Of a stretch of 45,469 bases of DNA, positions 1,861 through 38,487 are shown in pieces; position 1 is the stretch's first letter, and each line of letters starts with the position of its first letter. Both the position numbers and the translations under genes were made by a program. The notes under the pieces were generated by a model, which made no database searches, was not told the origin of the DNA, and was given only the letters and a program-made list of their open reading frames with translations. The stretch is taken from UHGV virus genome UHGV-0206691. One strand, given 5' to 3'. This DNA is from a virus.

Positions 1861-1889
1861 ATAGTAGTCTATTCTATCACAGTGTGCAA
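1861..1889 (-). promoter_or_regulatory. early promoter, TTGCAC-N17-TACTAT class
   Basis: minus strand reads TTGCAC, 17-nt spacer, TACTAT, then TCA; AATAG-N4-CTATT inverted repeat overlaps -10; lies just upstream of gene 1701..1829. Confidence 0.5.
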
Positions 1890-3237: not shown

Positions 3238-3271
3238 AACCCTAACTCCTCTGTCTCGTTCCGATAAGTGA

Positions 3272-3300
3272 ATAGTATCCTATTATGTTGGGGTGTGCAA
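3272..3300 (-). promoter_or_regulatory. early promoter, TTGCAC-N17-TACTAT class
   Basis: minus strand reads cTTGCACaccccaacataataggaTACTATtcactta; near-identical to the promoters at 26855, 36202 and 38070. Confidence 0.55.
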
Positions 3301-8360: not shown

Positions 8361-8704
8361 CTGATAAATGGTGGCTTAATTTGCGCAGCGGCGACAAAGT
8401 TTACACCGTCGGCGACCGCAGAAAGAACAGCGGTGTAGCTACTGTGCTACAAAACAGCAAAAAGTACATACACATTGCGCATGAAGCTCGCGCACTCCGC
8501 GTGAATAAATCGTCTGGCAGGCTTGAGGATTACCCGAAAACCTTAATATATAAAAGTGAAAAGCATCACATTGACGCTGTTGACGCAAGACGTAAGTTCG
8601 CAGGAATGCTGCAACAGTTAAGCGACTTACATCGCGATGATTCTTTCATTCCCACAGAAGAACAGCTACAGGCATTAAACTTGTATTTGGAGAGTTTACG
8701 ATGA
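8357..8704 (+). CDS. hypothetical protein (about 115 aa)
   Basis: ORF track 8342..8704 trimmed to ATG (MTDKWWLNL), ATGA overlap with upstream gene. Confidence 0.45.
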   Translation: MTDKWWLNLRSGDKVYTVGDRRKNSGVATVLQNSKKYIHIAHEARALRVNKSSGRLEDYPKTLIYKSEKHHIDAVDARRKFAGMLQQLSDLHRDDSFIPTEEQLQALNLYLESLR

Positions 8705-9990
8705 TTCTTAAAGAACGCGGTGGAAATAACGATGTGCACGCCTTACTGTCGCCATCTGGCGCTAAGAAGTGGCTAAGCTGCGCCGCATCACTGGCCTGTG
8801 AAAAAGATATTCCTAACACGTCCGGTAAAGCAGCCGTTACAGGGACCGCGTGCCACACTATTGCTGAGGTCCATCTCAACGCCTATATCCGCGGAACCGC
8901 GCTACCGTTAGAGCGTGAAGTCGGCGCTTACGTGCTGGATGAAGGTAAAGGCCAGATTAAGGCGCTAATCAGCCCGATGAAAGGAGCGGTACTGATTACG
9001 GCGGATATGATTGAGCAGGTGCGCAAGTACACCGACTACTGCAAAGCGATTATCGACGTGGCGACTTACGCCAAGCTCGAGATGCGCGTCAATCTTACTG
9101 AAGTATTGCATCCGGGGTACAAAGTACCTGCTGAGAGTGAAGAAGGTAAGGAGGATGGTTTAGAGACATTCGGAACAGCCGACTTAGTGGCGGTTATAGA
9201 AGGCTTTACGGGTGAAAGTAACTCCGCGATGCTCATTATCGGCGACCTTAAAACAGGACGACATCGTGTCGAAGCGAAAGAAAACAAGCAGCTTATGCTT
9301 TACGCGCTCGGTGTTTATCGCCGACTAAAAAGACGTTATAACATAACAATTGTTCGTCTGGTCATCTTCCAGCCGTATGCCGGCGGTGCGTCGGAGTGGG
9401 ATATCTCGGTTGAAGGTCTTGAACTGTTTGCTAAGTTCGCACAGAAACGCGCGCTGTTAGCACTCGATGCGTATTTCCGTGGTAAGAAGAACCTGAAAGC
9501 GTCCGACTTTAAGCCGTCAGTCGATGGTTGTCAGTGGTGTCGTTTCTCGGAGCAGTGCGCCGCGCGTACAAAGACGGTTAACGCGGTACTGGCAGAAGAA
9601 CTGGAGGACGACTTTGCGCTGGAACTGACGCCGGAGCAACTCGTAACTGAGTATGAGAAGTTGCCGCTGTTGCGCCAGCACATCGACAAGGTTGAGAAAG
9701 CTATGGCCGCCGCTTTGCATTCCGGTAAGAAAGTGCCGGGATATAAGCTGGTTGAAGGTCGTCCTGGAAATCGTGCGTGGAAAGATGCCGATGCGATTGA
9801 AGTGTCACACGGCGACATTCTCAAAAAAGAGGTATTGATGTCCCCTACGGAGGCAGCAAAAGTTCTTTCGGCGGATGAGATGGCCGCGCTTGAGCCGTTT
9901 ATTACCCGTAAGCCTGGCGCACCATGTGTCGCAACGGCAGACGACAAACGTCCTGAGTGGAATCAGGTTAGTGAAGAAGATTTAGAATAA
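8701..9990 (+). CDS. PD-(D/E)XK-type nuclease, DUF2800-like (Cas4/RecB-like fold with C-terminal Cys cluster)
   Basis: ORF track; N-terminal SPSGAKKWLSCAASLAC, central GDLKTGRH, C-terminal CQWCRFSEQC; sits next to SSB-like gene as in phage replication modules. Confidence 0.6.
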   Translation: MILKERGGNNDVHALLSPSGAKKWLSCAASLACEKDIPNTSGKAAVTGTACHTIAEVHLNAYIRGTALPLEREVGAYVLDEGKGQIKALISPMKGAVLITADMIEQVRKYTDYCKAIIDVATYAKLEMRVNLTEVLHPGYKVPAESEEGKEDGLETFGTADLVAVIEGFTGESNSAMLIIGDLKTGRHRVEAKENKQLMLYALGVYRRLKRRYNITIVRLVIFQPYAGGASEWDISVEGLELFAKFAQKRALLALDAYFRGKKNLKASDFKPSVDGCQWCRFSEQCAARTKTVNAVLAEELEDDFALELTPEQLVTEYEKLPLLRQHIDKVEKAMAAALHSGKKVPGYKLVEGRPGNRAWKDADAIEVSHGDILKKEVLMSPTEAAKVLSADEMAALEPFITRKPGAPCVATADDKRPEWNQVSEEDLE

Positions 9991-16857: not shown

Positions 16858-16886
16858 AAAAGGCCCCAAACGGGGCCTTAGTTTTA
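16858..16886. terminator. bidirectional hairpin terminator between replication module and tailspike gene
   Basis: aaAGGCCCCaaacGGGGCCTtagtttta. Confidence 0.6.
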
Positions 16887-23703: not shown

Positions 23704-25989
23704 TTAATACCCCGGCTGACCGCGAGTAGCGCGGCGAGCTTTAGAAATCGGTGAGTTGTTATCCTGTAACTGCGACGCTACTGTTTCACTGATTATAATA
23801 CGTAAACGCCCTTCGTCATCACGTTCTGTTACAGCAGAATCTACGCGCCCCGTAGTGTTATTAACTATAGTGACGTTATCACCGCCGGGCTGGCCGCCGT
23901 TTTGCCCCATAATTTCTTTCATCTGCTGCGCAGTGCGCACACGTGACGCACCAGCAGGCATGATAACTTCTGGTTTACCGCGTTCAGCGATGGTGGAAGC
24001 CTGCCCCGCAGATAACTGACCCCCCTGCTCACGTGCCGAGCGGATTTTGGCGATATTAGCCAGCCCCGCGGCAACGGCGGTGGCGGCAGCTACAGGAGCC
24101 AGGAATGGGCCGACAACAGGGATAGCGGCCGTTGACTTATATGCCTCAATAGCCGATGTGTACGTGGCGATAGTGGCCTGTGCGATAGCAAACGCCTTGT
24201 ATGCGGTGGACGCCTCGCCAAATGCCGTTTTAGCATTAGCCGCCATATCACCAAAAGAGCTACCTAAAGCCTCGGCTCGCTTCGTGGCATACTGCTCATT
24301 GATAGCGTTAAGCGCCGCTTGATACTGTTCCTCGTTAATCAACCCCTGTTCACGGTATTTATCTGCGACCGCCAGTTTCTGCTGTTCCTGGATGTCGAGA
24401 AGCTCAAGCTCAGCGGCGTTCTGGCCCATAATCTGAGCCATGAAGTCGTCGCCTTTCTGCTGTTTTTCCTGGGCTTCTTTCTGGCGTTTATCCAGTTCAT
24501 CTTGTCGTTTTTGCCCTGCTTCGAGGACAATAGCCGTTTTTGCTTGCTCGTATTCTTTCAGTGACAACGCGCCCTGGCTGTAGAACTCTTTTGCTTTAGC
24601 CAGTTTCTGCTGTTCCTGCGCGTCGATAGCCTTTAACTCATCGTTGTTCTGGCGGGCCAAAGTGTCGAGGTAATCTTGCGCCTGATTCCGTAGTTGTTCT
24701 GCTTTCTTGGCGGCGGCTTTTGCTGCTTTATCGTCGGTGTTTCCCGCCCCGTCAGTTCCGCCCTTTTTATTAACAAGACTGGCTAAGTCAATTTCTTGCT
24801 TCTTGCGCTCGTTGTACTGCTTGCGCTGCTCCTCAATTTCTTTCTTACGCTGCTTAGACCTGTTAGTAATGGCTTGTGATTCGGCCTCTGCACGTTTTAT
24901 GCTGGCGTCGTATGCGGCGTCAGCCTCCGCGGTCAGTTTTTTAAATGTGAGCGCCGCCGTTTTGCTCGGGTCAAACACATCAGCAAGGGTCTGGCCTAAC
25001 GCTACTGCGTAGTCGTCAATGCGCTGGAACCACGCAATAACCTCGTGGAATGTCTGCTGGATATCTGGCAACCACTCTCGGATAGCGTCCGGGATAGCTC
25101 CCAGCGAGTCTGACATATCTGTGGATTTGTTCTCAGTGTCGTATGCCAGGTCATTCAAGGCATCAGAAATAAACTTGAACGATTCATTGAACAGTGTCAC
25201 CCAATCCTGGAGCGTGGCGGCGATCTCATTAGACGCGATAGCGTCGGTGAGTGCCGTGATAGCATCTTCCGCCGTTGCCGCTTGCGCACCTACCGCGTCA
25301 CCGAAACCGGATTGCGCTACGGCAAGAACAAGGCCATCGAAGGAGTCCGCCAGACTCGATAACTGACCATCTAAGGTCTTCGAGCGCGTTTCCATCGCCC
25401 CGGCGAAATCAGTGTTACCGATATTTAGCAGGTATTTCTGAATCTCTTCGGAGTTCTTTTTAACCGTGGTGGTAACACCGCGGAACGTGAAAGAAACTGT
25501 ATCCGCCTGTTGGGAAGACTTGATGCCAAACTCTTTTAAGCGTTCAAACTCAAAGGTACTGGCGTCCGCTACGGCCTCAATCATCTGATTAAGGTCTTTG
25601 CCCATCGCCGCAGCGGTGTTGCCGTAGGAGATTAACGCCTCTTTGCTGGGGTTAAGACCTAGCGCCACGAGCTTGGTAAACCCCTCGACCGCCTGGTTAA
25701 GACCGTATGGTGTTTCTTTTGCGAACTGTTGCAGGACGCTGAAAGCCTTCGCCGCATTCTCCGCGCTTCCGGTCATTGTGATGAGGCCGGAATTCAGCTT
25801 ATCGAAGTTGCGCTGAGAGTCCACCAGCGCACTGAACACCTGCTTGGCGGTTTCCAGACTGACAACGGCGGCGGCAGCAGCCCCCGCCGCCTTGGTAAGC
25901 CCGTTCAGTTGTGATGTGGTTTTATCGACGCCAGTCGATGATACTCGTACTATCAAGCTAGCGGTATCAGCCATGATTTCTACCTTCAA
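23704..25989 (-). CDS. tail tape measure protein
   Basis: ORF track; 761 aa, Ala/Gln-rich coiled-coil, largest gene of tail module, preceded by chaperone pair; true start may be MADTAS about 15 nt inside. Confidence 0.8.
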   Translation of the reverse strand: MKVEIMADTASLIVRVSSTGVDKTTSQLNGLTKAAGAAAAAVVSLETAKQVFSALVDSQRNFDKLNSGLITMTGSAENAAKAFSVLQQFAKETPYGLNQAVEGFTKLVALGLNPSKEALISYGNTAAAMGKDLNQMIEAVADASTFEFERLKEFGIKSSQQADTVSFTFRGVTTTVKKNSEEIQKYLLNIGNTDFAGAMETRSKTLDGQLSSLADSFDGLVLAVAQSGFGDAVGAQAATAEDAITALTDAIASNEIAATLQDWVTLFNESFKFISDALNDLAYDTENKSTDMSDSLGAIPDAIREWLPDIQQTFHEVIAWFQRIDDYAVALGQTLADVFDPSKTAALTFKKLTAEADAAYDASIKRAEAESQAITNRSKQRKKEIEEQRKQYNERKKQEIDLASLVNKKGGTDGAGNTDDKAAKAAAKKAEQLRNQAQDYLDTLARQNNDELKAIDAQEQQKLAKAKEFYSQGALSLKEYEQAKTAIVLEAGQKRQDELDKRQKEAQEKQQKGDDFMAQIMGQNAAELELLDIQEQQKLAVADKYREQGLINEEQYQAALNAINEQYATKRAEALGSSFGDMAANAKTAFGEASTAYKAFAIAQATIATYTSAIEAYKSTAAIPVVGPFLAPVAAATAVAAGLANIAKIRSAREQGGQLSAGQASTIAERGKPEVIMPAGASRVRTAQQMKEIMGQNGGQPGGDNVTIVNNTTGRVDSAVTERDDEGRLRIIISETVASQLQDNNSPISKARRATRGQPGY

Positions 25990-26299
25990 AGATTGCTTCT
26001 AAGCCCATGATAATGTCTATCTCGAACAGGCTAAGCTGTTTTTGCGTAACATCGAGATAGGCTTTCAGGTCTTGCCACGTAACGGATTCTCTTGCAAACA
26101 ATACTACAGCGTCCTCGCGCACGTGTCGCGTAAACTTAATGTCGCAGTACGTTTCAAAGGTGGATATAAAAAGGGGCGGGCATTCCGGCCCACCCCGTCG
26201 CGCTGCACGTTTTTTCTTATCGATTACACCCATCGCGATAAGCGCCTGTTCGTGACCGTCAGCTATAGAATCAAATTCTCTGATTTTATGCTTATCCAC
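25967..26299 (-). CDS. tail assembly chaperone, T-frame (possible -1 frameshift extension of 26332..26748)
   Basis: ORF track; -1 frame relative to upstream chaperone stays open across its stop; GGAAAAG at end of upstream gene. Confidence 0.4.
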   Translation of the reverse strand: MDKHKIREFDSIADGHEQALIAMGVIDKKKRAARRGGPECPPLFISTFETYCDIKFTRHVREDAVVLFARESVTWQDLKAYLDVTQKQLSLFEIDIIMGLEAIFEGRNHG

Positions 26300-26331: not shown

Positions 26332-26748
26332 CTACTTTTCCTGTAATGCTTTGCGCTCGGCGTTATGGAACGCAGCTACCTGTGTGCCTAATGCCTTAAA
26401 CTGGTCCAGCAATTTGTTAAATGCTTCTTTAGAGAAAGGCTCATCAAAACTCCAGCCGTTTACGACTTCTGCCGCAAGTTGTCGGTTGAGGTCTTCCGCC
26501 AGTTCGTTAATCGCCAGGTTATATTCAGTATAGTCGCCTGATTCTTTGGCGGCTTTTTCCAGTTCTTCGAAACGCGCCAACCCGCGACGGTACGCAATAA
26601 TGAAAGCACGCCCAGCTTTAACGGCGGCATCCGCATCCGGATTTACAACGTTAAGCCACTCCCCTGAGTCTTCACCATTTGGTAGGAGAATGGGCATCTT
26701 CTTGCCCACCAACGCTTTCTCTTCGAAATAAAAATCAGAAAGTTTCAT
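26332..26748 (-). CDS. tail assembly chaperone (gpG-like)
   Basis: ORF track; acidic 138-aa protein directly upstream of tape measure. Confidence 0.5.
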   Translation of the reverse strand: MKLSDFYFEEKALVGKKMPILLPNGEDSGEWLNVVNPDADAAVKAGRAFIIAYRRGLARFEELEKAAKESGDYTEYNLAINELAEDLNRQLAAEVVNGWSFDEPFSKEAFNKLLDQFKALGTQVAAFHNAERKALQEK

Positions 26749-26854
26749 TCTTTAATCCTTTGGTTAAGAGGTTACTGGTTAAGATGGACGCGCCAGACGG
26801 GAACCACCCGCTTTTCGTGTGCGACACTAGGCGCAAACTTATTCTAGCACACTA

Positions 26855-26883
26855 CTTGCGCGCCCCAATATAATAGGGTACTA
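26855..26883 (+). promoter_or_regulatory. early-class promoter TTGCGC-N17-TACTAT driving accessory cassette
   Basis: cTTGCGCgccccaatataatagggTACTATtcactta; matches promoters at 3272 (minus), 36202 and 38070. Confidence 0.55.
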
Positions 26884-26914
26884 TTCACTTACACCAACAA
26901 TGAAGGGGTTTAAA

Positions 26915-27106
26915 ATGTCCAGTTTACCAGTTTCCTTAATTCTGTTTGCACTGCTAGCCTATTTTGCGCCTTTCCTGGTTGCATATTTCCGCGACCATAA
27001 AGCGAAGTTAGCGATATTCATGGCCAACCTGTTTCTCGGTTGGATTCTTCTGCCGTGGGTATTTATTTTAATCTGGGCTTGCAACTCGAATGTCAAAGAG
27101 AAGTGA
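26915..27106 (+). CDS. Imm-like superinfection-immunity family small membrane protein (63 aa, 2 TM)
   Basis: ORF track 26900..27106 trimmed to ATG with GAAGGGG RBS; RDHKAKLAIFMANLFLGWILLPWVFILIWA resembles recalled Imm-family motif. Confidence 0.5.
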   Translation: MSSLPVSLILFALLAYFAPFLVAYFRDHKAKLAIFMANLFLGWILLPWVFILIWACNSNVKEK

Positions 27107-27143
27107 GCTAGTATAGGACAAATCCTAAGCACGAGGAATAAGC

Positions 27144-28274
27144 ATGGCCCGGAAGAAAATAACCGACGAACAGTTGCAGGAAGAATTGAACGCCGGTATG
27201 AAGAATATCGACATCGCCCGTAAATACGGCATCTCGGACCGCGTTATTCGCATCCGTAAAGCGAAGCTGGCTAAGAAAGGCGTAGGCCACGGGCGCGACG
27301 TTAGCCACCTTGTACCAGATGGCTACAAGATTAAAGGTACATCGTCGCTGGTTGATGAGTTCGGCAACACTAAGCTGCAATGGGTTAAGACCGACACCGA
27401 TGCTGAACGTCAGGTCGAGTTGATGAAAGCCGTAATCGAAGGCATGAAGTCAGAGATTACACCAGTTGCGCCTGTTAAAGCGACTCGAGCCAAACGCGAC
27501 GATAAACTACTCAATCTTTACACGGTATCTGATTTTCATCTCGGTATGCTGGCATGGGCTGACGAGAGCGGCGACGACTGGGATATGAAAATCGCGGAAG
27601 ACATGTTCTCTCGATGGTTCGACGCGGCGTTTCAGAAAGCACCGGATGCAGGAACAGGAGTTATTAACCTGCTTGGCGACCTTGCACACTTCGATAGTCT
27701 GGATGCCGTTACACCCGCGAGCGGTCATATTCTTGACGCGGACACGCGCTACCAGAAACTGGTCCGCTACATGATTCGTATGGTTCGCCGTGTTGTCGAT
27801 ATGGCACTTGTTAAGCATAAGAATGTTCGCTTGCTTATCGTGCAAGGGAACCACGACGAAAGCGGAATGATTTGGTTAGCTGAGATGTTCAGTACACTAT
27901 ACGACAACGAGCCGCGCGTGTTAGTAGATACGTCGCCGGATGTTTACAAGATGGTGCAACACGGCAAAACGACGTTGTTCTTTACACACGGACATAAATG
28001 CCGGTTTGAGGTGGTAGAACCCATTATGATCGCTAAGTTCAGAAAAGCATTTGGCGAAAGCGAGTACAGTTATGCGCATGTCGGACATCTCCACCACCAA
28101 AAGATTGTAGAAAGTAGGAATATGGTAGTGGAGCAGCATCGCACTCTCGCGGCGAAAGATGCATATGCTTCTCGCGGCGGGTGGATGTCAGGTCGGAGTG
28201 CAAACGTAATTACTTATAGCGCCGAATATGGAGAGGTCGCACGTTTAACTATTTCACCGGAGATGTTGGGATGA
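27144..28274 (+). CDS. HTH-fused calcineurin-like metallophosphoesterase
   Basis: ORF track; N-terminal HTH (IDIARKYGISDRVIRIRKAKL); metallophosphoesterase motifs SDFHLG, GDLAHFD, GNHDE, THGHK, GHLHH in canonical order. Confidence 0.75.
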   Translation: MARKKITDEQLQEELNAGMKNIDIARKYGISDRVIRIRKAKLAKKGVGHGRDVSHLVPDGYKIKGTSSLVDEFGNTKLQWVKTDTDAERQVELMKAVIEGMKSEITPVAPVKATRAKRDDKLLNLYTVSDFHLGMLAWADESGDDWDMKIAEDMFSRWFDAAFQKAPDAGTGVINLLGDLAHFDSLDAVTPASGHILDADTRYQKLVRYMIRMVRRVVDMALVKHKNVRLLIVQGNHDESGMIWLAEMFSTLYDNEPRVLVDTSPDVYKMVQHGKTTLFFTHGHKCRFEVVEPIMIAKFRKAFGESEYSYAHVGHLHHQKIVESRNMVVEQHRTLAAKDAYASRGGWMSGRSANVITYSAEYGEVARLTISPEMLG

Positions 28275-28504
28275 TTAAAGCCCTGTGGATTTTCATCGTA
28301 ATGCCGCTTTTGATGCTGTTTGTGCTAGCGGCTGCGGTGCTGTTTCTAGCGGTAGCCTTGTTCTTTATTACTATGGACCCGTCCGTATTCTTTAGCTTGT
28401 ACAAAGAGGTTACACAAGCGGACCTGACAGGCATACGTCTTCTGTACGTAGTCGCCGTCGTAGTTTCTGCGGTTATCATTCTGGCAGAGGAAAGTGATTT
28501 ATGA
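28271..28504 (+). CDS. small membrane protein (77 aa)
   Basis: ORF track; ATGA overlap with upstream gene; hydrophobic segments. Confidence 0.5.
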   Translation: MIKALWIFIVMPLLMLFVLAAAVLFLAVALFFITMDPSVFFSLYKEVTQADLTGIRLLYVVAVVVSAVIILAEESDL

Positions 28505-28731
28505 CTTCAAAATACAACCGCACAATGACAAACACTCACGGTAGCACTATGACAGTAGATGTTTACGATGTGCTACGTGCCTTCGACATCCGTGACCCTG
28601 CGCTACAACATGCATTGAAGAAACTATTGTGCATGGGCTTGCGGGGGCACAAGGACACCGGAACAGACTTAGCGGAAGCAATTGAAAGCCTGGAGAAGTT
28701 ACGGGAGTATCGAAGTAACATTGATGAGTGA
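28501..28731 (+). CDS. hypothetical protein (76 aa)
   Basis: ORF track; ATGA overlap with upstream gene; terminator follows. Confidence 0.5.
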   Translation: MTSKYNRTMTNTHGSTMTVDVYDVLRAFDIRDPALQHALKKLLCMGLRGHKDTGTDLAEAIESLEKLREYRSNIDE

Positions 28732-28734
28732 TAA

Positions 28735-28762
28735 AAAGGCCCCGAAAGGGGCCTTAGTTTTA
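28735..28762. terminator. bidirectional hairpin terminator closing accessory cassette
   Basis: aaaaGGCCCCgaaaGGGGCCttagtttta. Confidence 0.6.
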
Positions 28763-29932
28763 TGCGTAGGTGATACGTTGAATTACGATAGACGACTGGT
28801 ACTGGTTTCCGGTTGCCTGGCCTTCAATGGACTGAGTGATTGACTCAGGTCCGCCAATCTCTGGCGTAACCGCCGTAAGCTCTGCACGTTTCAAACTGAA
28901 AGACATAGCCCCGTTTACCCCCGCCAGAATAGAGTTAATCTCTACCTGCTGCTCGTTGATAAACTTCTGAATCATAGCCATGTCGTACAGCTTACCAGAG
29001 ATAGAGAAGGTGTTAGCCGCACGGCTACGCTCAACAAACGCTACGTTAGTGTTACCAAGTTCGAACTGGGCGGACGCGCTGTTATCATTGGTGATGGTCA
29101 GGCTGTCGCAGCGCAACGGCGTAGAGCCGTCGAACACAGAAACGTCAACCGAAGAGAACGGCTCATCAGTGAAAGTCACCGTAGAGAAATCAGAACCAGA
29201 CGGCTGCGTGGCGAGAATCTCCTGACTGCGACCGATGAACGGGAAGCTGCCAGTTACCATAGCGTTAACGGCCTGCTCAATAGTGAAGCCAGAAACTTCC
29301 ACGCCTTTGGTCAGCGTGTACGCGTCAGCCCCACCACACTGGCCTTTGTACCACGTGAGAATAGAGAACGTCTTACACTGGCTACCGGTTTCCAGCTTAT
29401 CGCCAGTTTTAGCCGCAGTAGTGGCAGTCTCAGTGGTAAGAGTATGCTGGATACCCGCACCGGTGACAACAGTTGCGCTTACCTCAGTTACGATAAACGG
29501 CTTAGCGTTGTCGCCCGTTAAGTCGGTAAACGCAATCAGGTCGCCCACTTCAACGCCGTCGGTAATAAAGCTGCCATCGGCACGGGTGAACGTCTTGCCT
29601 GCGGGTGCAACGGTAATCGATAACCCTGACAGAGAAACCCCGGACTGCCACGTAGAGCCTAAAGCACCCGCCAGCCAGTCGTCCTGGCTTTTCGAGCTAA
29701 GCTCAATAGCATATTCACCGCTAACCTGTTTGTTACCGGTGCGGATGGATGTAGTTTCACGGCTGCCATCCAGTTCGTTGGAGGTCAGTGTGTCGCGGGT
29801 AATGGCAGGAACGCCACCCGTGTTGCGCAACGGCGACCATACCGGGTTATCGGGTGTTACGCCCGGGGTCACTTCCGCCACATAGAATTGCGCGGTATTC
29901 GCGCCCTTAAAAGGAGTTGTAGCCATATTCAC
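28760..29932 (-). CDS. major tail protein
   Basis: ORF track; 390 aa, position between tail terminator-like gene and chaperones. Confidence 0.6.
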   Translation of the reverse strand: MNMATTPFKGANTAQFYVAEVTPGVTPDNPVWSPLRNTGGVPAITRDTLTSNELDGSRETTSIRTGNKQVSGEYAIELSSKSQDDWLAGALGSTWQSGVSLSGLSITVAPAGKTFTRADGSFITDGVEVGDLIAFTDLTGDNAKPFIVTEVSATVVTGAGIQHTLTTETATTAAKTGDKLETGSQCKTFSILTWYKGQCGGADAYTLTKGVEVSGFTIEQAVNAMVTGSFPFIGRSQEILATQPSGSDFSTVTFTDEPFSSVDVSVFDGSTPLRCDSLTITNDNSASAQFELGNTNVAFVERSRAANTFSISGKLYDMAMIQKFINEQQVEINSILAGVNGAMSFSLKRAELTAVTPEIGGPESITQSIEGQATGNQYQSSIVIQRITYA

Positions 29933-36201: not shown

Positions 36202-36230
36202 TTGCAGACACCAATATAATAGGGTACTAT
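36202..36230 (+). promoter_or_regulatory. early-class promoter TTGCAG-N17-TACTAT
   Basis: tTTGCAGacaccaatataatagggTACTATtcagttaa; 36-nt core identical to copy at 38070. Confidence 0.55.
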
Positions 36231-36258
36231 TCAGTTAACTTAAACAGGAGGTGTTACT

Positions 36259-36492
36259 ATGGGTGCGTACAAACATTCTATAAACTGGAAAGGTAGACGT
36301 GGCTTAGCTGTTCTCGAAGGGGGTGTTTCAGGCCCACACGCGTTTGGGTGGTGGCTAGTTCCATCATATTCAAACAAACATGGCGGGCAGGACTACGACT
36401 GGAATAACGCCATACCTACTAGATTCAAAACAAAGAAAGCCGCGTTGGACGCGCGTAAAGAGTTAAGAAAAGGGGGACTATTTTTACAGTAA
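36259..36492 (+). CDS. hypothetical accessory protein (77 aa)
   Basis: ORF track; CAGGAGGTG RBS; own promoter and terminator; antisense to head module. Confidence 0.5.
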   Translation: MGAYKHSINWKGRRGLAVLEGGVSGPHAFGWWLVPSYSNKHGGQDYDWNNAIPTRFKTKKAALDARKELRKGGLFLQ

Positions 36493-36497
36493 AAATA

Positions 36498-36516
36498 AGG
36501 CCCCTTAAAGGGGCCC
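36498..36516. terminator. bidirectional hairpin terminator
   Basis: AGGCCCCttaaaGGGGCCCT after stop of 36259..36492. Confidence 0.55.
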
Positions 36517-36520
36517 TCTA

Positions 36521-38069: not shown

Positions 38070-38098
38070 TTGCAGACACCAATATAATAGGGTACTAT
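38070..38098 (+). promoter_or_regulatory. early-class promoter TTGCAG-N17-TACTAT
   Basis: tTTGCAGacaccaatataatagggTACTATtcagttaa. Confidence 0.55.
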
Positions 38099-38129
38099 TC
38101 AGTTAAACGACAAAGAGGAGGAAGAAAAC

Positions 38130-38459
38130 ATGATTAATGCTAAAGAAGAGTTGCTCGCCCATCTGGATGGTAAAGATGTAGTTAAATGCGCCTGGTTTGC
38201 AGACTATGATGCGGATGACGCGGATTACGGTTTCGTTGAGGGGAGTAAATGGCTCCTGCGGGAGAATTACTCCCGCGGAGAATGGGAAAGCCTAATGGCC
38301 GCACTTGATTTTGAATACCACGACGGTTACGGCAGTCAAAACTTCTTCGGGGTAATTTGGTACGAAGATGGTACATGGTCTTCTCGCGGAGAATACGATG
38401 GTTCTGAATGGTGGGAATATAATGCCGTGCCGGATGTGCCGGAAGAACTTAAGCGCTAA
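38130..38459 (+). CDS. hypothetical acidic Trp/Tyr-rich accessory protein (109 aa)
   Basis: ORF track; AGAGGAGG RBS; own promoter and terminator; antisense to head module. Confidence 0.5.
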   Translation: MINAKEELLAHLDGKDVVKCAWFADYDADDADYGFVEGSKWLLRENYSRGEWESLMAALDFEYHDGYGSQNFFGVIWYEDGTWSSRGEYDGSEWWEYNAVPDVPEELKR

Positions 38460-38463
38460 AATT

Positions 38464-38487
38464 AAGGCCCCTTTAGGGGCCTTTTCT
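38464..38487. terminator. bidirectional hairpin terminator
   Basis: AAGGCCCCtttaGGGGCCTTTTcttatt. Confidence 0.6.

What the first reader, a model, noticed from the sequence alone, without database searches (positions are those of the whole stretch)
26855..28762. Self-contained four-gene cassette inserted antisense into the tail module: Imm-like membrane protein, HTH-metallophosphoesterase, two small proteins
Seen in sequence: four rightward genes (26915-27106, 27144-28274, 28271-28504, 28501-28731) lie between the leftward tail-chaperone gene (26332-26748) and the leftward major tail gene (28760-29932). They have their own promoter (26855-26883) and their own hairpin terminator (28735-28762). 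Genes 2-3 and 3-4 are joined by ATGA stop/start overlaps, so they are translated as a unit. The promoter matches the one in front of the leftward early operon (3272-3300), which implies early expression inside a late region. Inference: this is an accessory module acting at the membrane (two TM proteins) with an enzymatic component, a plausible superinfection-exclusion or counter-defence system. Nothing about this combination is recognisable to me as a described system.
Basis: partly seen in the sequence, partly recalled or inferred. Interest (0 to 1): 0.8.

Follow-up and report, generated by a model that had tools for sequence, protein, structure and literature searches.

The report
Conserved Imm–nuclease operon in tail module

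Summary
In detail: four rightward ORFs, two ATGA overlaps, a promoter motif and a hairpin terminator lie between the leftward tail chaperone and tail tube genes.

- The window is a Kagunavirus (Guernseyvirinae). The same locus occurs in hundreds of sequenced relatives and is already annotated there.
- The genes have separate distributions:
  - g1 is a T4-Imm-family protein, found in 366 phage records.
  - g2 is an HTH plus Mre11/SbcD-like metallophosphoesterase, found in 2,040 phage records, mostly without an Imm homologue.
  - g3 is a clade-restricted two-TM ORF. It is a precise 230-bp insertion into a variable slot.
  - g4 is a widespread 76-aa phage domain of unknown function, found in other gene contexts elsewhere.
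- The promoter (5 copies) and the hairpin (4 copies) are this phage's standard signals. Two more antisense units in the head module are built the same way.

The most likely reading is an autonomously transcribed mosaic operon. Imm would exclude superinfecting phage at the tape-measure/inner-membrane step, as with the HK97 gp15 moron and T4 Imm. The HTH-MPE would be a cytoplasmic DNA nuclease.

Early expression and all functions remain untested. Interest is low to moderate.

The parts
26856..26891 (+). Promoter motif: -35 TTGCGC (26856-61), 17-nt conserved spacer, -10 TACTAT (26879-84), then TCACTTA
   Evidence: The motif has 4 copies in the window against 0 expected in shuffles, plus a fifth weaker copy. 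It is identical at the same locus in 7 relatives. Promoter function is inferred.
26915..27106 (+). g1: 63-aa Imm-family (T4 superinfection immunity) inner-membrane protein with two hydrophobic helices
   Evidence: Pfam PF14373 scores E 1.6e-12, 47.5 bits against a cut-off of 27.9. phrog_1039 scores E 5e-23. It is 28% identical to T4 Imm at E 3e-10, and T4 residues R33 and W50 are conserved.
27144..28274 (+). g2: 376-aa N-terminal HTH plus beta-hairpin plus Mre11/SbcD-like metallophosphoesterase; predicted cytoplasmic Mn-dependent DNA nuclease
28271..28504 (+). g3: 77-aa two-TM ORF, clade-restricted, inserted precisely into the variable slot between g2 and g4
   Evidence: Only 20 protein clusters match, at 75-100% identity, nearly all 77 aa, many from Kagunavirus-sized contigs. 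One partial tblastn hit exists in the phage collection. Homology to relatives stops at 28274 and resumes at 28501.
28501..28731 (+). g4: 76-aa soluble beta-hairpin plus three-helix domain of unknown function, widespread in phages, also found as a domain of longer proteins
28736..28755 (.). Bidirectional intrinsic terminator hairpin AAGGCCCC-GAAA-GGGGCCTT, shared by the cassette and the convergent tail tube gene
   Evidence: It appears in the terminator scan. Folding z-scores are -4.1 and -4.3 on the two strands. The same hairpin family occurs at 16860-79, 36497-517 and 38464-83, all at convergent gene junctions.
26841..26849 (-). Possible leftward extended -10 (TGcTAGAAT on the minus strand) for the chaperone/tape-measure operon, back to back with the cassette promoter
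   Evidence: Read from the sequence. The TGnTAGAAT element is kept in the Kagunavirus relatives (alignment). Serratia phage Eta has divergent promoters annotated at the same locus. This is inference only.
23704..25989 (-). Tape measure protein gene, the proposed target of Imm. Its hydrophobic segment at aa 621-647 lies in a region conserved between TMP alleles.
   Evidence: ORF. Hydrophobic segment. Residues 601-680 are about 90% identical between two TMP alleles that are 54% identical overall. The target role is inferred by analogy with T4 Imm and HK97 gp15.
36202..36517 (+). Sister unit: same promoter motif, one 77-aa ORF (36259-36492), same hairpin type, antisense in the head module
   Evidence: No protein family matches the ORF.
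38070..38483 (+). Sister unit: same promoter motif, one 109-aa ORF (38130-38459), same hairpin, between the portal and MuF-like genes
   Evidence: The ORF matches phrog_3972, function unknown. Flanking genes were identified.

Best explanation
The region is the conserved non-structural island of Guernseyvirinae phages. It is one rightward operon, bracketed by the phage's standard sigma70-type promoter and a bidirectional terminator, lying antisense between the tail tube and tail chaperone genes. It is a mosaic of independent genes, not one machine.

(1) g1 is an Imm-family protein. [quoted passage not shown] The likely mechanism is interference with the membrane-inserting C-terminal part of their tape measure protein. 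This is inferred from T4 Imm and HK97 gp15.

(2) g2 is a cytoplasmic, DNA-binding, Mre11/SbcD-like two-metal nuclease. It is a core gene of several virulent siphophage lineages. It probably processes DNA ends, or degrades DNA, during replication, recombination, packaging or host takeover. This too is inferred.

(3) g3 is a small two-TM accessory gene dropped precisely into a recombination hot-spot after g2. Other phages carry nothing there, an HNH endonuclease, a different small ORF, or a HAD phosphatase plus dNMP-kinase pair.

(4) g4 is a widespread small soluble phage domain of unknown function.

Shown here: the anatomy, homologies, distributions, conservation of the catalytic residues and repetition of the signals. 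Inferred: timing of expression and every biochemical function.
For: Locus conservation:
- 235 phage records match the DNA.
- The order chaperone | Imm | MPE | slot | g4 | tail tube holds in K1ind1, Bas74, GZMU_E2010, EC3-1, UTI-CM001, ST20, fEg-Eco19, FSL SP-101 and Kenya-K53.

Independent distributions:
- MPE occurs in 2,040 phage records and 4,680 50%-identity clusters.
- It lies beside lysis, terminase or replication genes, with no Imm, in Drexlerviridae, Dhillonvirus, Pseudomonas MPK9 and a T4-like contig.
- g4 homologues sit among unrelated small genes in phiEB49, Shewanella 3/49, JD001 and Bas79.
- g3 is a precise insertion confined to about 20 clusters.

Imm:
- It scores above the Pfam cut-off and keeps T4 Imm R33 and W50.
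- A 2026 preprint reports that mutating these two residues reduces exclusion, and that Imm binds the T4 tape measure protein (bioRxiv 10.64898/2026.03.06.709160).
- HK97 gp15 is a precedent: an inner-membrane exclusion moron with its own promoter and terminator, between the chaperone and tape-measure genes (PMC3594210).

MPE:
- All metal-ligand motifs are invariant.
- The motif forms are of the Mre11 type: DxHLG, GDLxH, GNHD.
- The best structural neighbours are PolD DP1, Mre11 and SbcD.
- The N-terminal HTH is always present, although its type varies.

Signals: The promoter and hairpin are repeated as families.

Expression: In RNA-seq of the close relative K1_SXAU_B4, the Imm gene falls in the class of the DNA polymerase and methylase genes, not with the tail genes.
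Against: - No experiment exists for any of the four proteins in this phage group.
- Imm is only 28% identical to T4 Imm, over 54 residues.
- Imm and MPE are adjacent and co-transcribed in every Guernseyvirinae phage examined, so a functional link within this subfamily cannot be excluded.
- The RNA-seq study classes the Imm gene as peaking last, after 100 min, not first. Its design (MOI 100, 30-min latent period, sampling to 120 min) cannot separate classes cleanly.
- Imm N-terminal alleles track the TMP/chaperone alleles in only 6 of 7 phages, and physical linkage alone would explain that.
Confidence: 0.6

Rival explanations
1. One reading: the four genes form one integrated membrane-anchored superinfection-exclusion or counter-defence system. 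Its enzymatic effector (the MPE) would be recruited or controlled by the two TM proteins.
For: The four genes share one promoter and one terminator and are translationally coupled by ATGA overlaps. Imm and MPE are adjacent in all Guernseyvirinae examined.
Against: g3 is absent from nearly all relatives, which still carry Imm, MPE and g4. In K1ind1, ST20 and UTI-CM001, g4 is replaced by other genes. About 1,700 MPE-bearing phage records show no Imm match. The MPE has no TM segment. There are no PADLOC matches.
Confidence: 0.07
2. The MPE is a counter-defence or repair enzyme rather than a replication/recombination nuclease. One version is a nucleic-acid end-healing phosphoesterase working with the HAD 3'-phosphatase and P-loop kinase that occupy the adjacent slot in some Kagunaviruses. 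Another is a hydrolase of cyclic-nucleotide immune signals.
Against: The gene is conserved across whole phage families, whereas anti-defence genes are usually variable. The N-terminal DNA-binding HTH is constant. The top structural neighbours and motif forms are of the nuclease type. The window itself has no phosphatase or kinase partner.
Confidence: 0.15
3. The HTH-MPE acts at the early-to-late switch or in packaging, either as a late-gene regulator or as a pac-site-associated nuclease, rather than in recombination.
For: In other families it lies at the boundary of the replication genes with the lysis or terminase genes. It is directly upstream of the small terminase in Dhillonvirus PEC14. 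It is in the position of lambda Q, before the holin, in Pseudomonas MPK9 and in T1-like phages. The HTH gives weak hits to sigma70 region 4/GerE, to a late-activator PHROG and to the small terminase.
Against: All of these hits are weak (E 0.001-0.03). The catalytic residues are invariant, which a pure regulator would not need. In a T4-like contig it lies among Dda/PIF1 helicase and 5'-3' exonuclease genes.
Confidence: 0.1

Closest known systems
HK97 gp15 moron (Cumby et al. 2012; reviewed in PMC3594210)
   Same: A small inner-membrane protein gene with its own promoter and terminator, embedded in the siphophage tail operon next to the tail chaperone and tape-measure genes. It blocks DNA entry in a way that depends on the incoming phage's tail/TMP.
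   Different: gp15 belongs to the YebO family and is unrelated in sequence to Imm. HK97 is temperate and gp15 is expressed from the prophage. The HK97 moron is a single gene. Here the unit lies between the tail tube and chaperone genes, is antisense, carries three further genes and belongs to a virulent phage.
T4 Imm (PF14373 Imm_superinfect)
   Same: A Pfam member above the cut-off. It has two hydrophobic helices. The R33 and W50 equivalents are conserved. T4 Imm blocks genome translocation and binds the tape measure protein.
   Different: It is 63 aa against 83 aa, is 28% identical and lacks the T4 C-terminal tail. It lies in a siphovirus next to the TMP operon, whereas T4 imm lies beside genes 42 and 43. 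Exclusion activity here is untested.
Mre11 / SbcD / archaeal PolD DP1 nuclease-type metallophosphoesterases
   Different: It has no capping domain and no Rad50/SbcC partner gene. It has an N-terminal HTH plus beta-hairpin module instead. Sequence similarity is not significant (E 0.12-0.2).
Serratia phage Eta locus between the tail protein and tail chaperone genes
   Same: The same structural-module position. It holds an antisense gene bracketed by annotated bidirectional rho-independent terminators and divergent promoters with a repeated motif.
   Different: Eta carries a single, unrelated 111-aa gene there and has neither Imm nor the MPE at that locus.
Pseudomonas putida nuclease MPE / PdeM (PDB 6NVO)
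   Same: A stand-alone Mn-dependent metallophosphoesterase nuclease. One public annotation names a close homologue after it.

Membership tests
Imm_superinfect (PF14373; T4 Imm) | Matches the family HMM above the curated cut-off | tested here: met
   47.5 bits against a cut-off of 27.9, E 1.6e-12. phrog_1039 'immunity to superinfection' scores E 5e-23. BLASTP against T4 Imm gives E 3e-10.
Imm_superinfect (PF14373; T4 Imm) | Small membrane protein with hydrophobic helices, and conservation of the residues needed for T4 Imm activity (R33, W50) | tested here: met
   Two hydrophobic segments, aa 1-26 and 31-58. R and W are invariant in the alignment with T4 Imm.
Imm_superinfect (PF14373; T4 Imm) | Blocks genome translocation of superinfecting phage and binds the tape measure protein | not testable with these tools
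   This needs plating, DNA-entry and pull-down experiments. Only a conserved hydrophobic TMP region was identified as a candidate target.
Mre11/SbcD-type nuclease metallophosphoesterase | Five MPE motifs with the metal-ligand residues | tested here: met
   D130, H132, G178, D179, N236, H237, H282, G314 and H317 are invariant, and H182 and H315 are kept in at least 90% of 96 homologues.
Mre11/SbcD-type nuclease metallophosphoesterase | Fold closest to the nuclease members of the superfamily | tested here: inconclusive
Mre11/SbcD-type nuclease metallophosphoesterase | Rad50/SbcC ATPase partner and a capping domain | tested here: not met
   No large ATPase ORF lies in or next to the cassette. The model has an N-terminal HTH plus hairpin and no C-terminal capping domain. 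It is therefore not filed as an Mre11/SbcD orthologue.
Mre11/SbcD-type nuclease metallophosphoesterase | Mn-dependent DNA nuclease activity | not testable with these tools
   A biochemical assay is needed.
Moron (independent transcription unit inside a late operon) | Own promoter and terminator | tested here: met
   Met at the sequence level only: repeated promoter motif and bidirectional hairpin.
Moron (independent transcription unit inside a late operon) | Present or absent as a block between related phages, with deviant base composition | tested here: inconclusive
   It is replaced by a different gene in Serratia phage Eta, but is present in every Kagunavirus and Jerseyvirus examined. GC is 0.43-0.50 against 0.507 for the genome, which is not clearly deviant. 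g3 alone behaves as a classic insertion.
DUF3310 / T7 gp1.7 nucleotide kinase (considered for g4) | Matches the DUF3310 profile or gp1.7 | tested here: not met
   No Pfam hit for any of 25 homologues. hhalign against T7 gp1.7 gives probability 0.3%, although gp1.7 itself matches DUF3310 at E 4.5e-23. The only link is weak Foldseek similarity to DUF3310, SaV-like and nucleotide-kinase models (E about 0.01-0.02).
Known anti-phage defence systems (PADLOC-DB) | Any component matches a defence-system model | tested here: not met
   No matches at E up to 1 for any of the four proteins.

The most novel reading that the evidence does not exclude
Within Guernseyvirinae the always-adjacent, co-transcribed Imm and HTH-MPE might act as a two-layer exclusion pair. 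Imm would block tape-measure-mediated entry at the membrane, and the DNA-binding nuclease would destroy any superinfecting or foreign DNA that still gets in. g3 would be an added membrane specificity factor in one subclade. Separately, the HTH-MPE family (about 4,700 clusters, in 4% of sequenced phages) has no experimentally known role. It could turn out to have a new core function at the early/late boundary.
Probability: 0.08. Interest if true: 0.6.

Novelty: already known. Interest (0 to 1): 0.25.

Why it matters
As a candidate new system it does not hold up. The locus is a standard, annotated feature of a well-sampled phage subfamily, and its layout repeats the original HK97 moron.

Three things remain useful.

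(a) A T4-Imm homologue that keeps the two functionally important residues sits next to the tape-measure operon of a small, engineerable siphovirus. This gives a simple system for testing whether Imm-TMP blocking extends beyond T4.

(b) The HTH-metallophosphoesterase is one of the more common uncharacterised phage enzymes. It occurs in 2,040 of 50,697 phage records, and its catalytic residues are invariant.

(c) The phage re-uses one promoter and one terminator for three antisense units in its structural module. That makes promoter mapping and clean deletions straightforward.

Tried and rejected
- PADLOC and NCBIfam scans of all four proteins found nothing usable.
- PDB sequence searches found nothing significant for g2 or g4, whether with single sequences or profiles.
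- The idea that g4 is a DUF3310/T7 gp1.7-type nucleotide kinase came from memory and from weak BFVD hits. It failed the sequence and profile tests.
- The idea that g4 is the C-terminal remnant of the 'ATP-binding protein' of K1ind1 was rejected. That protein is an unrelated P-loop dNMP-kinase-like protein. The long PHROG profiles simply include members with N-terminal extensions.
- The annotation of a g4-domain fusion to 'DNA ligase' in Aeromonas phage AhMtk13b was checked. Pfam sees only a BRCT domain, so no ligase link is claimed.
- The conserved 26789-26836 element upstream of the promoter is not significantly structured, with z -1.0 and -0.7.
- Imm/TMP allele co-variation gave 6 of 7 with one recombinant exception. 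It cannot be distinguished from plain linkage.
- Rfam and tRNA scans of the window were empty.
- The AFDB Foldseek library was unavailable.
- Literature searches for the MPE in Drexlerviridae or Guernseyvirinae found no functional study.
Full report
**What the window is.**
- DNA and protein searches place the window in the genus Kagunavirus (Guernseyvirinae). These are about 41-45-kb virulent siphoviruses of E. coli, related to the Salmonella Jerseyviruses.
- Pfam hits give the genome map. A rightward DNA-metabolism module runs from about 3.3 to 16.7 kb: AAA_25 primase-helicase, a DUF2800/PD-(D/E)XK nuclease, DNA polymerase A, a C5 methylase and an SNF2 helicase.
- A leftward structural module runs from about 16.9 to 41.8 kb: tailspike, tail, head, portal and terminase.

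**Check of the observation.**
- The four + strand ORFs are 26915-27106, 27144-28274, 28271-28504 and 28501-28731. The two ATGA overlaps are present.
- The flanking leftward genes are a tail assembly chaperone (26332-26748; its frameshift partner is 25967-26299) and the tail tube-position protein (28760-29932).
- The promoter TTGCGC-N17-TACTAT is part of a 36-nt motif with four close copies in the window: 3265-3300 (-), 26856-26891 (+), 36202-36237 (+) and 38070-38105 (+). None is expected by chance. A fifth, looser copy lies at 1861-1889 (-).
- The motif is kept without change at this locus in seven Kagunavirus relatives. It is recognisable, though diverged, in a Jerseyvirus.
- The hairpin at 28736-28755 folds far better than shuffled sequence on both strands.
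- The hairpin is bidirectional. On the minus strand it follows the tail tube stop codon directly and has the better T-run. The same AAGGCCCC-loop-GGGGCCTT hairpin recurs at 16860, 36497 and 38464, always where genes converge.

**The cassette is one of three units built the same way.**
- The promoter copies at 36202 and 38070 each drive one small rightward ORF that ends at a hairpin of this family. Both units lie inside the leftward head module.
- The signals are therefore the phage's standard set, not private features of this cassette.
- A candidate leftward extended -10 (TGcTAGAAT) lies back to back with the cassette promoter and is kept in the relatives. It would restart transcription of the chaperone/tape-measure operon after the terminator. 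This is inference.
- Serratia phage Eta has divergent promoters and bidirectional terminators annotated at the equivalent locus.

**Synteny.**
- The order chaperone | Imm | MPE | variable slot | 76-aa gene | (optional extra gene) | tail tube holds in every Kagunavirus and Jerseyvirus inspected.
- The variable slot is:
  - empty in Bas74;
  - an HNH endonuclease in EC3-1 and Kenya-K53;
  - a different 66-aa ORF in fEg-Eco19;
  - g3 in the window and GZMU_E2010;
  - a HAD 3'-phosphatase plus dNMP-kinase-like pair that replaces g4 in K1ind1, ST20 and UTI-CM001.
- Jerseyviruses add an Ant/Rha gene after g4.
- Homology between the window and its relatives breaks exactly at 28274 and resumes at 28501. 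g3 is therefore a precise 230-bp, ATGA-to-ATGA insertion.
- Serratia phage Eta shares the structural module but carries a single unrelated antisense gene at this locus. The site is an old accessory slot whose present content is fixed within Guernseyvirinae.
- Base composition of the cassette is not clearly deviant.

**g1.**
- It is a member of Pfam Imm_superinfect, scoring above the cut-off. It is 28% identical to T4 Imm and has two hydrophobic helices.
- It keeps the arginine and tryptophan that correspond to T4 Imm R33 and W50.
- A 2026 preprint reports that T4 Imm binds the tape measure protein, and that R33A and W50A weaken exclusion.
- The classic HK97 gp15 moron is an inner-membrane exclusion protein encoded between the chaperone and tape-measure genes. 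Its action depends on the incoming phage's tail.
- By analogy, g1 most likely blocks TMP-mediated DNA translocation by superinfecting relatives.
- The window's TMP has one hydrophobic segment (aa 621-647). It lies in a region about 90% conserved between two TMP alleles that are only 54% identical overall.
- Kagunavirus Imm has two N-terminal alleles and a nearly invariant C-terminal half. The alleles track the TMP/chaperone alleles in 6 of 7 phages, which linkage alone would explain.

**g2.**
- It belongs to a very large family: 4,680 clusters at 50% identity and 2,040 phage records. Members occur in Drexlerviridae, Guernseyvirinae, Dhillonvirus, vibriophages, N4-like roseophages and a T4-like contig.
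- All metal-ligand residues are invariant. The motif forms are those of Mre11/SbcD.
- An N-terminal HTH is always present, though of varying type. There is no hydrophobic segment and no Rad50/SbcC-like partner.
- Outside Guernseyvirinae the gene lies at the junction of the replication genes with the lysis or terminase genes, or among helicase and exonuclease genes. It is never next to an Imm gene there.
- I read it as a DNA-binding two-metal nuclease of phage DNA metabolism. I do not file it as an Mre11/SbcD orthologue.

**g3 and g4.**
- g3 is a real, conserved 77-aa two-TM ORF. Its substitutions are conservative and its length is nearly constant. It is limited to about 20 clusters, many of them from Kagunavirus-sized contigs. 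Its function is unknown.
- g4 occurs in 774 phage records across many genera, alone or as a domain of longer proteins. It is not linked to the MPE elsewhere.
- g4's model is a beta-hairpin plus three helices. It has no informative PDB neighbour and no Pfam family.
- A DUF3310/T7 gp1.7 relationship for g4 was tested and not supported.

**Expression.**
- Early expression is inferred only from the shared promoter.
- The single RNA-seq study of a close relative (K1_SXAU_B4) groups the Imm gene with the DNA polymerase and methylase genes rather than with the neighbouring tail genes. It labels that class as the last to peak.
- Its design (MOI 100, 30-min latent period, sampling to 120 min) cannot decide the matter.

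**Verdict.**
- The anatomy is confirmed and extended. The 'new four-gene system' reading is not supported.
- The locus is known and annotated, and its architecture follows the moron paradigm.
- Its parts are an Imm-family exclusion protein, a common but uncharacterised phage nuclease, one clade-specific membrane ORF and one widespread small domain.

Noticed in passing
window 36202-36517 and 38070-38483: Two more rightward single-ORF units (77 aa with no family; 109 aa matching phrog_3972, function unknown) lie antisense in the head module. Each has the same 36-nt promoter motif and the same AAGGCCCC...GGGGCCTT hairpin as the cassette.
   Followed up: partly
window 16860-16879: A fourth copy of the hairpin family lies at the convergent junction between the rightward DNA-metabolism module and the leftward tailspike gene.
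   Followed up: no
window 26789-26849: An almost invariant stretch lies upstream of the cassette promoter in all relatives. It includes a possible leftward extended -10 (TGnTAGAAT). The stretch is not significantly structured as RNA.
   Followed up: partly
window 26915-26990; L011, L016, L018: Kagunavirus Imm has two sharply different N-terminal (first-helix) alleles, while the C-terminal 38 residues are nearly invariant. The TMP and chaperone also come in two alleles (54% identity, with the divergence concentrated in TMP aa 200-480). fEg-Eco19 combines the window-type TMP with the other Imm allele.
   Followed up: partly
L001 5524-6563; L017 5857-6911; L016 5782-6821: In some Kagunaviruses the slot after the MPE holds a stand-alone HAD 3'-phosphatase (annotated as polynucleotide kinase) and a dNMP-kinase-like P-loop protein in place of g4. 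This places an end-healing or nucleotide-metabolism pair next to the nuclease.
   Followed up: partly
L022 2420-3829 (Aeromonas phage AhMtk13b): The g4-like domain forms the N-terminus of a 469-aa BRCT-containing protein annotated as a DNA ligase. That gene is two genes away from a PNK-type phosphatase. Pfam confirms only the BRCT domain.
   Followed up: partly
L009 4001-5137 (Pseudomonas phage MPK9); L013 3492-4634 (Dhillonvirus PEC14): The HTH-MPE homologue occupies the lambda-Q-like position just before the lysis genes in a lambdoid-type phage. In Dhillonvirus it lies directly upstream of the small terminase.
   Followed up: no
window 8701-9990: The replication module already encodes a DUF2800/PD-(D/E)XK (Cas4-like) nuclease, so the MPE is not the phage's only candidate recombination nuclease.
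   Followed up: no
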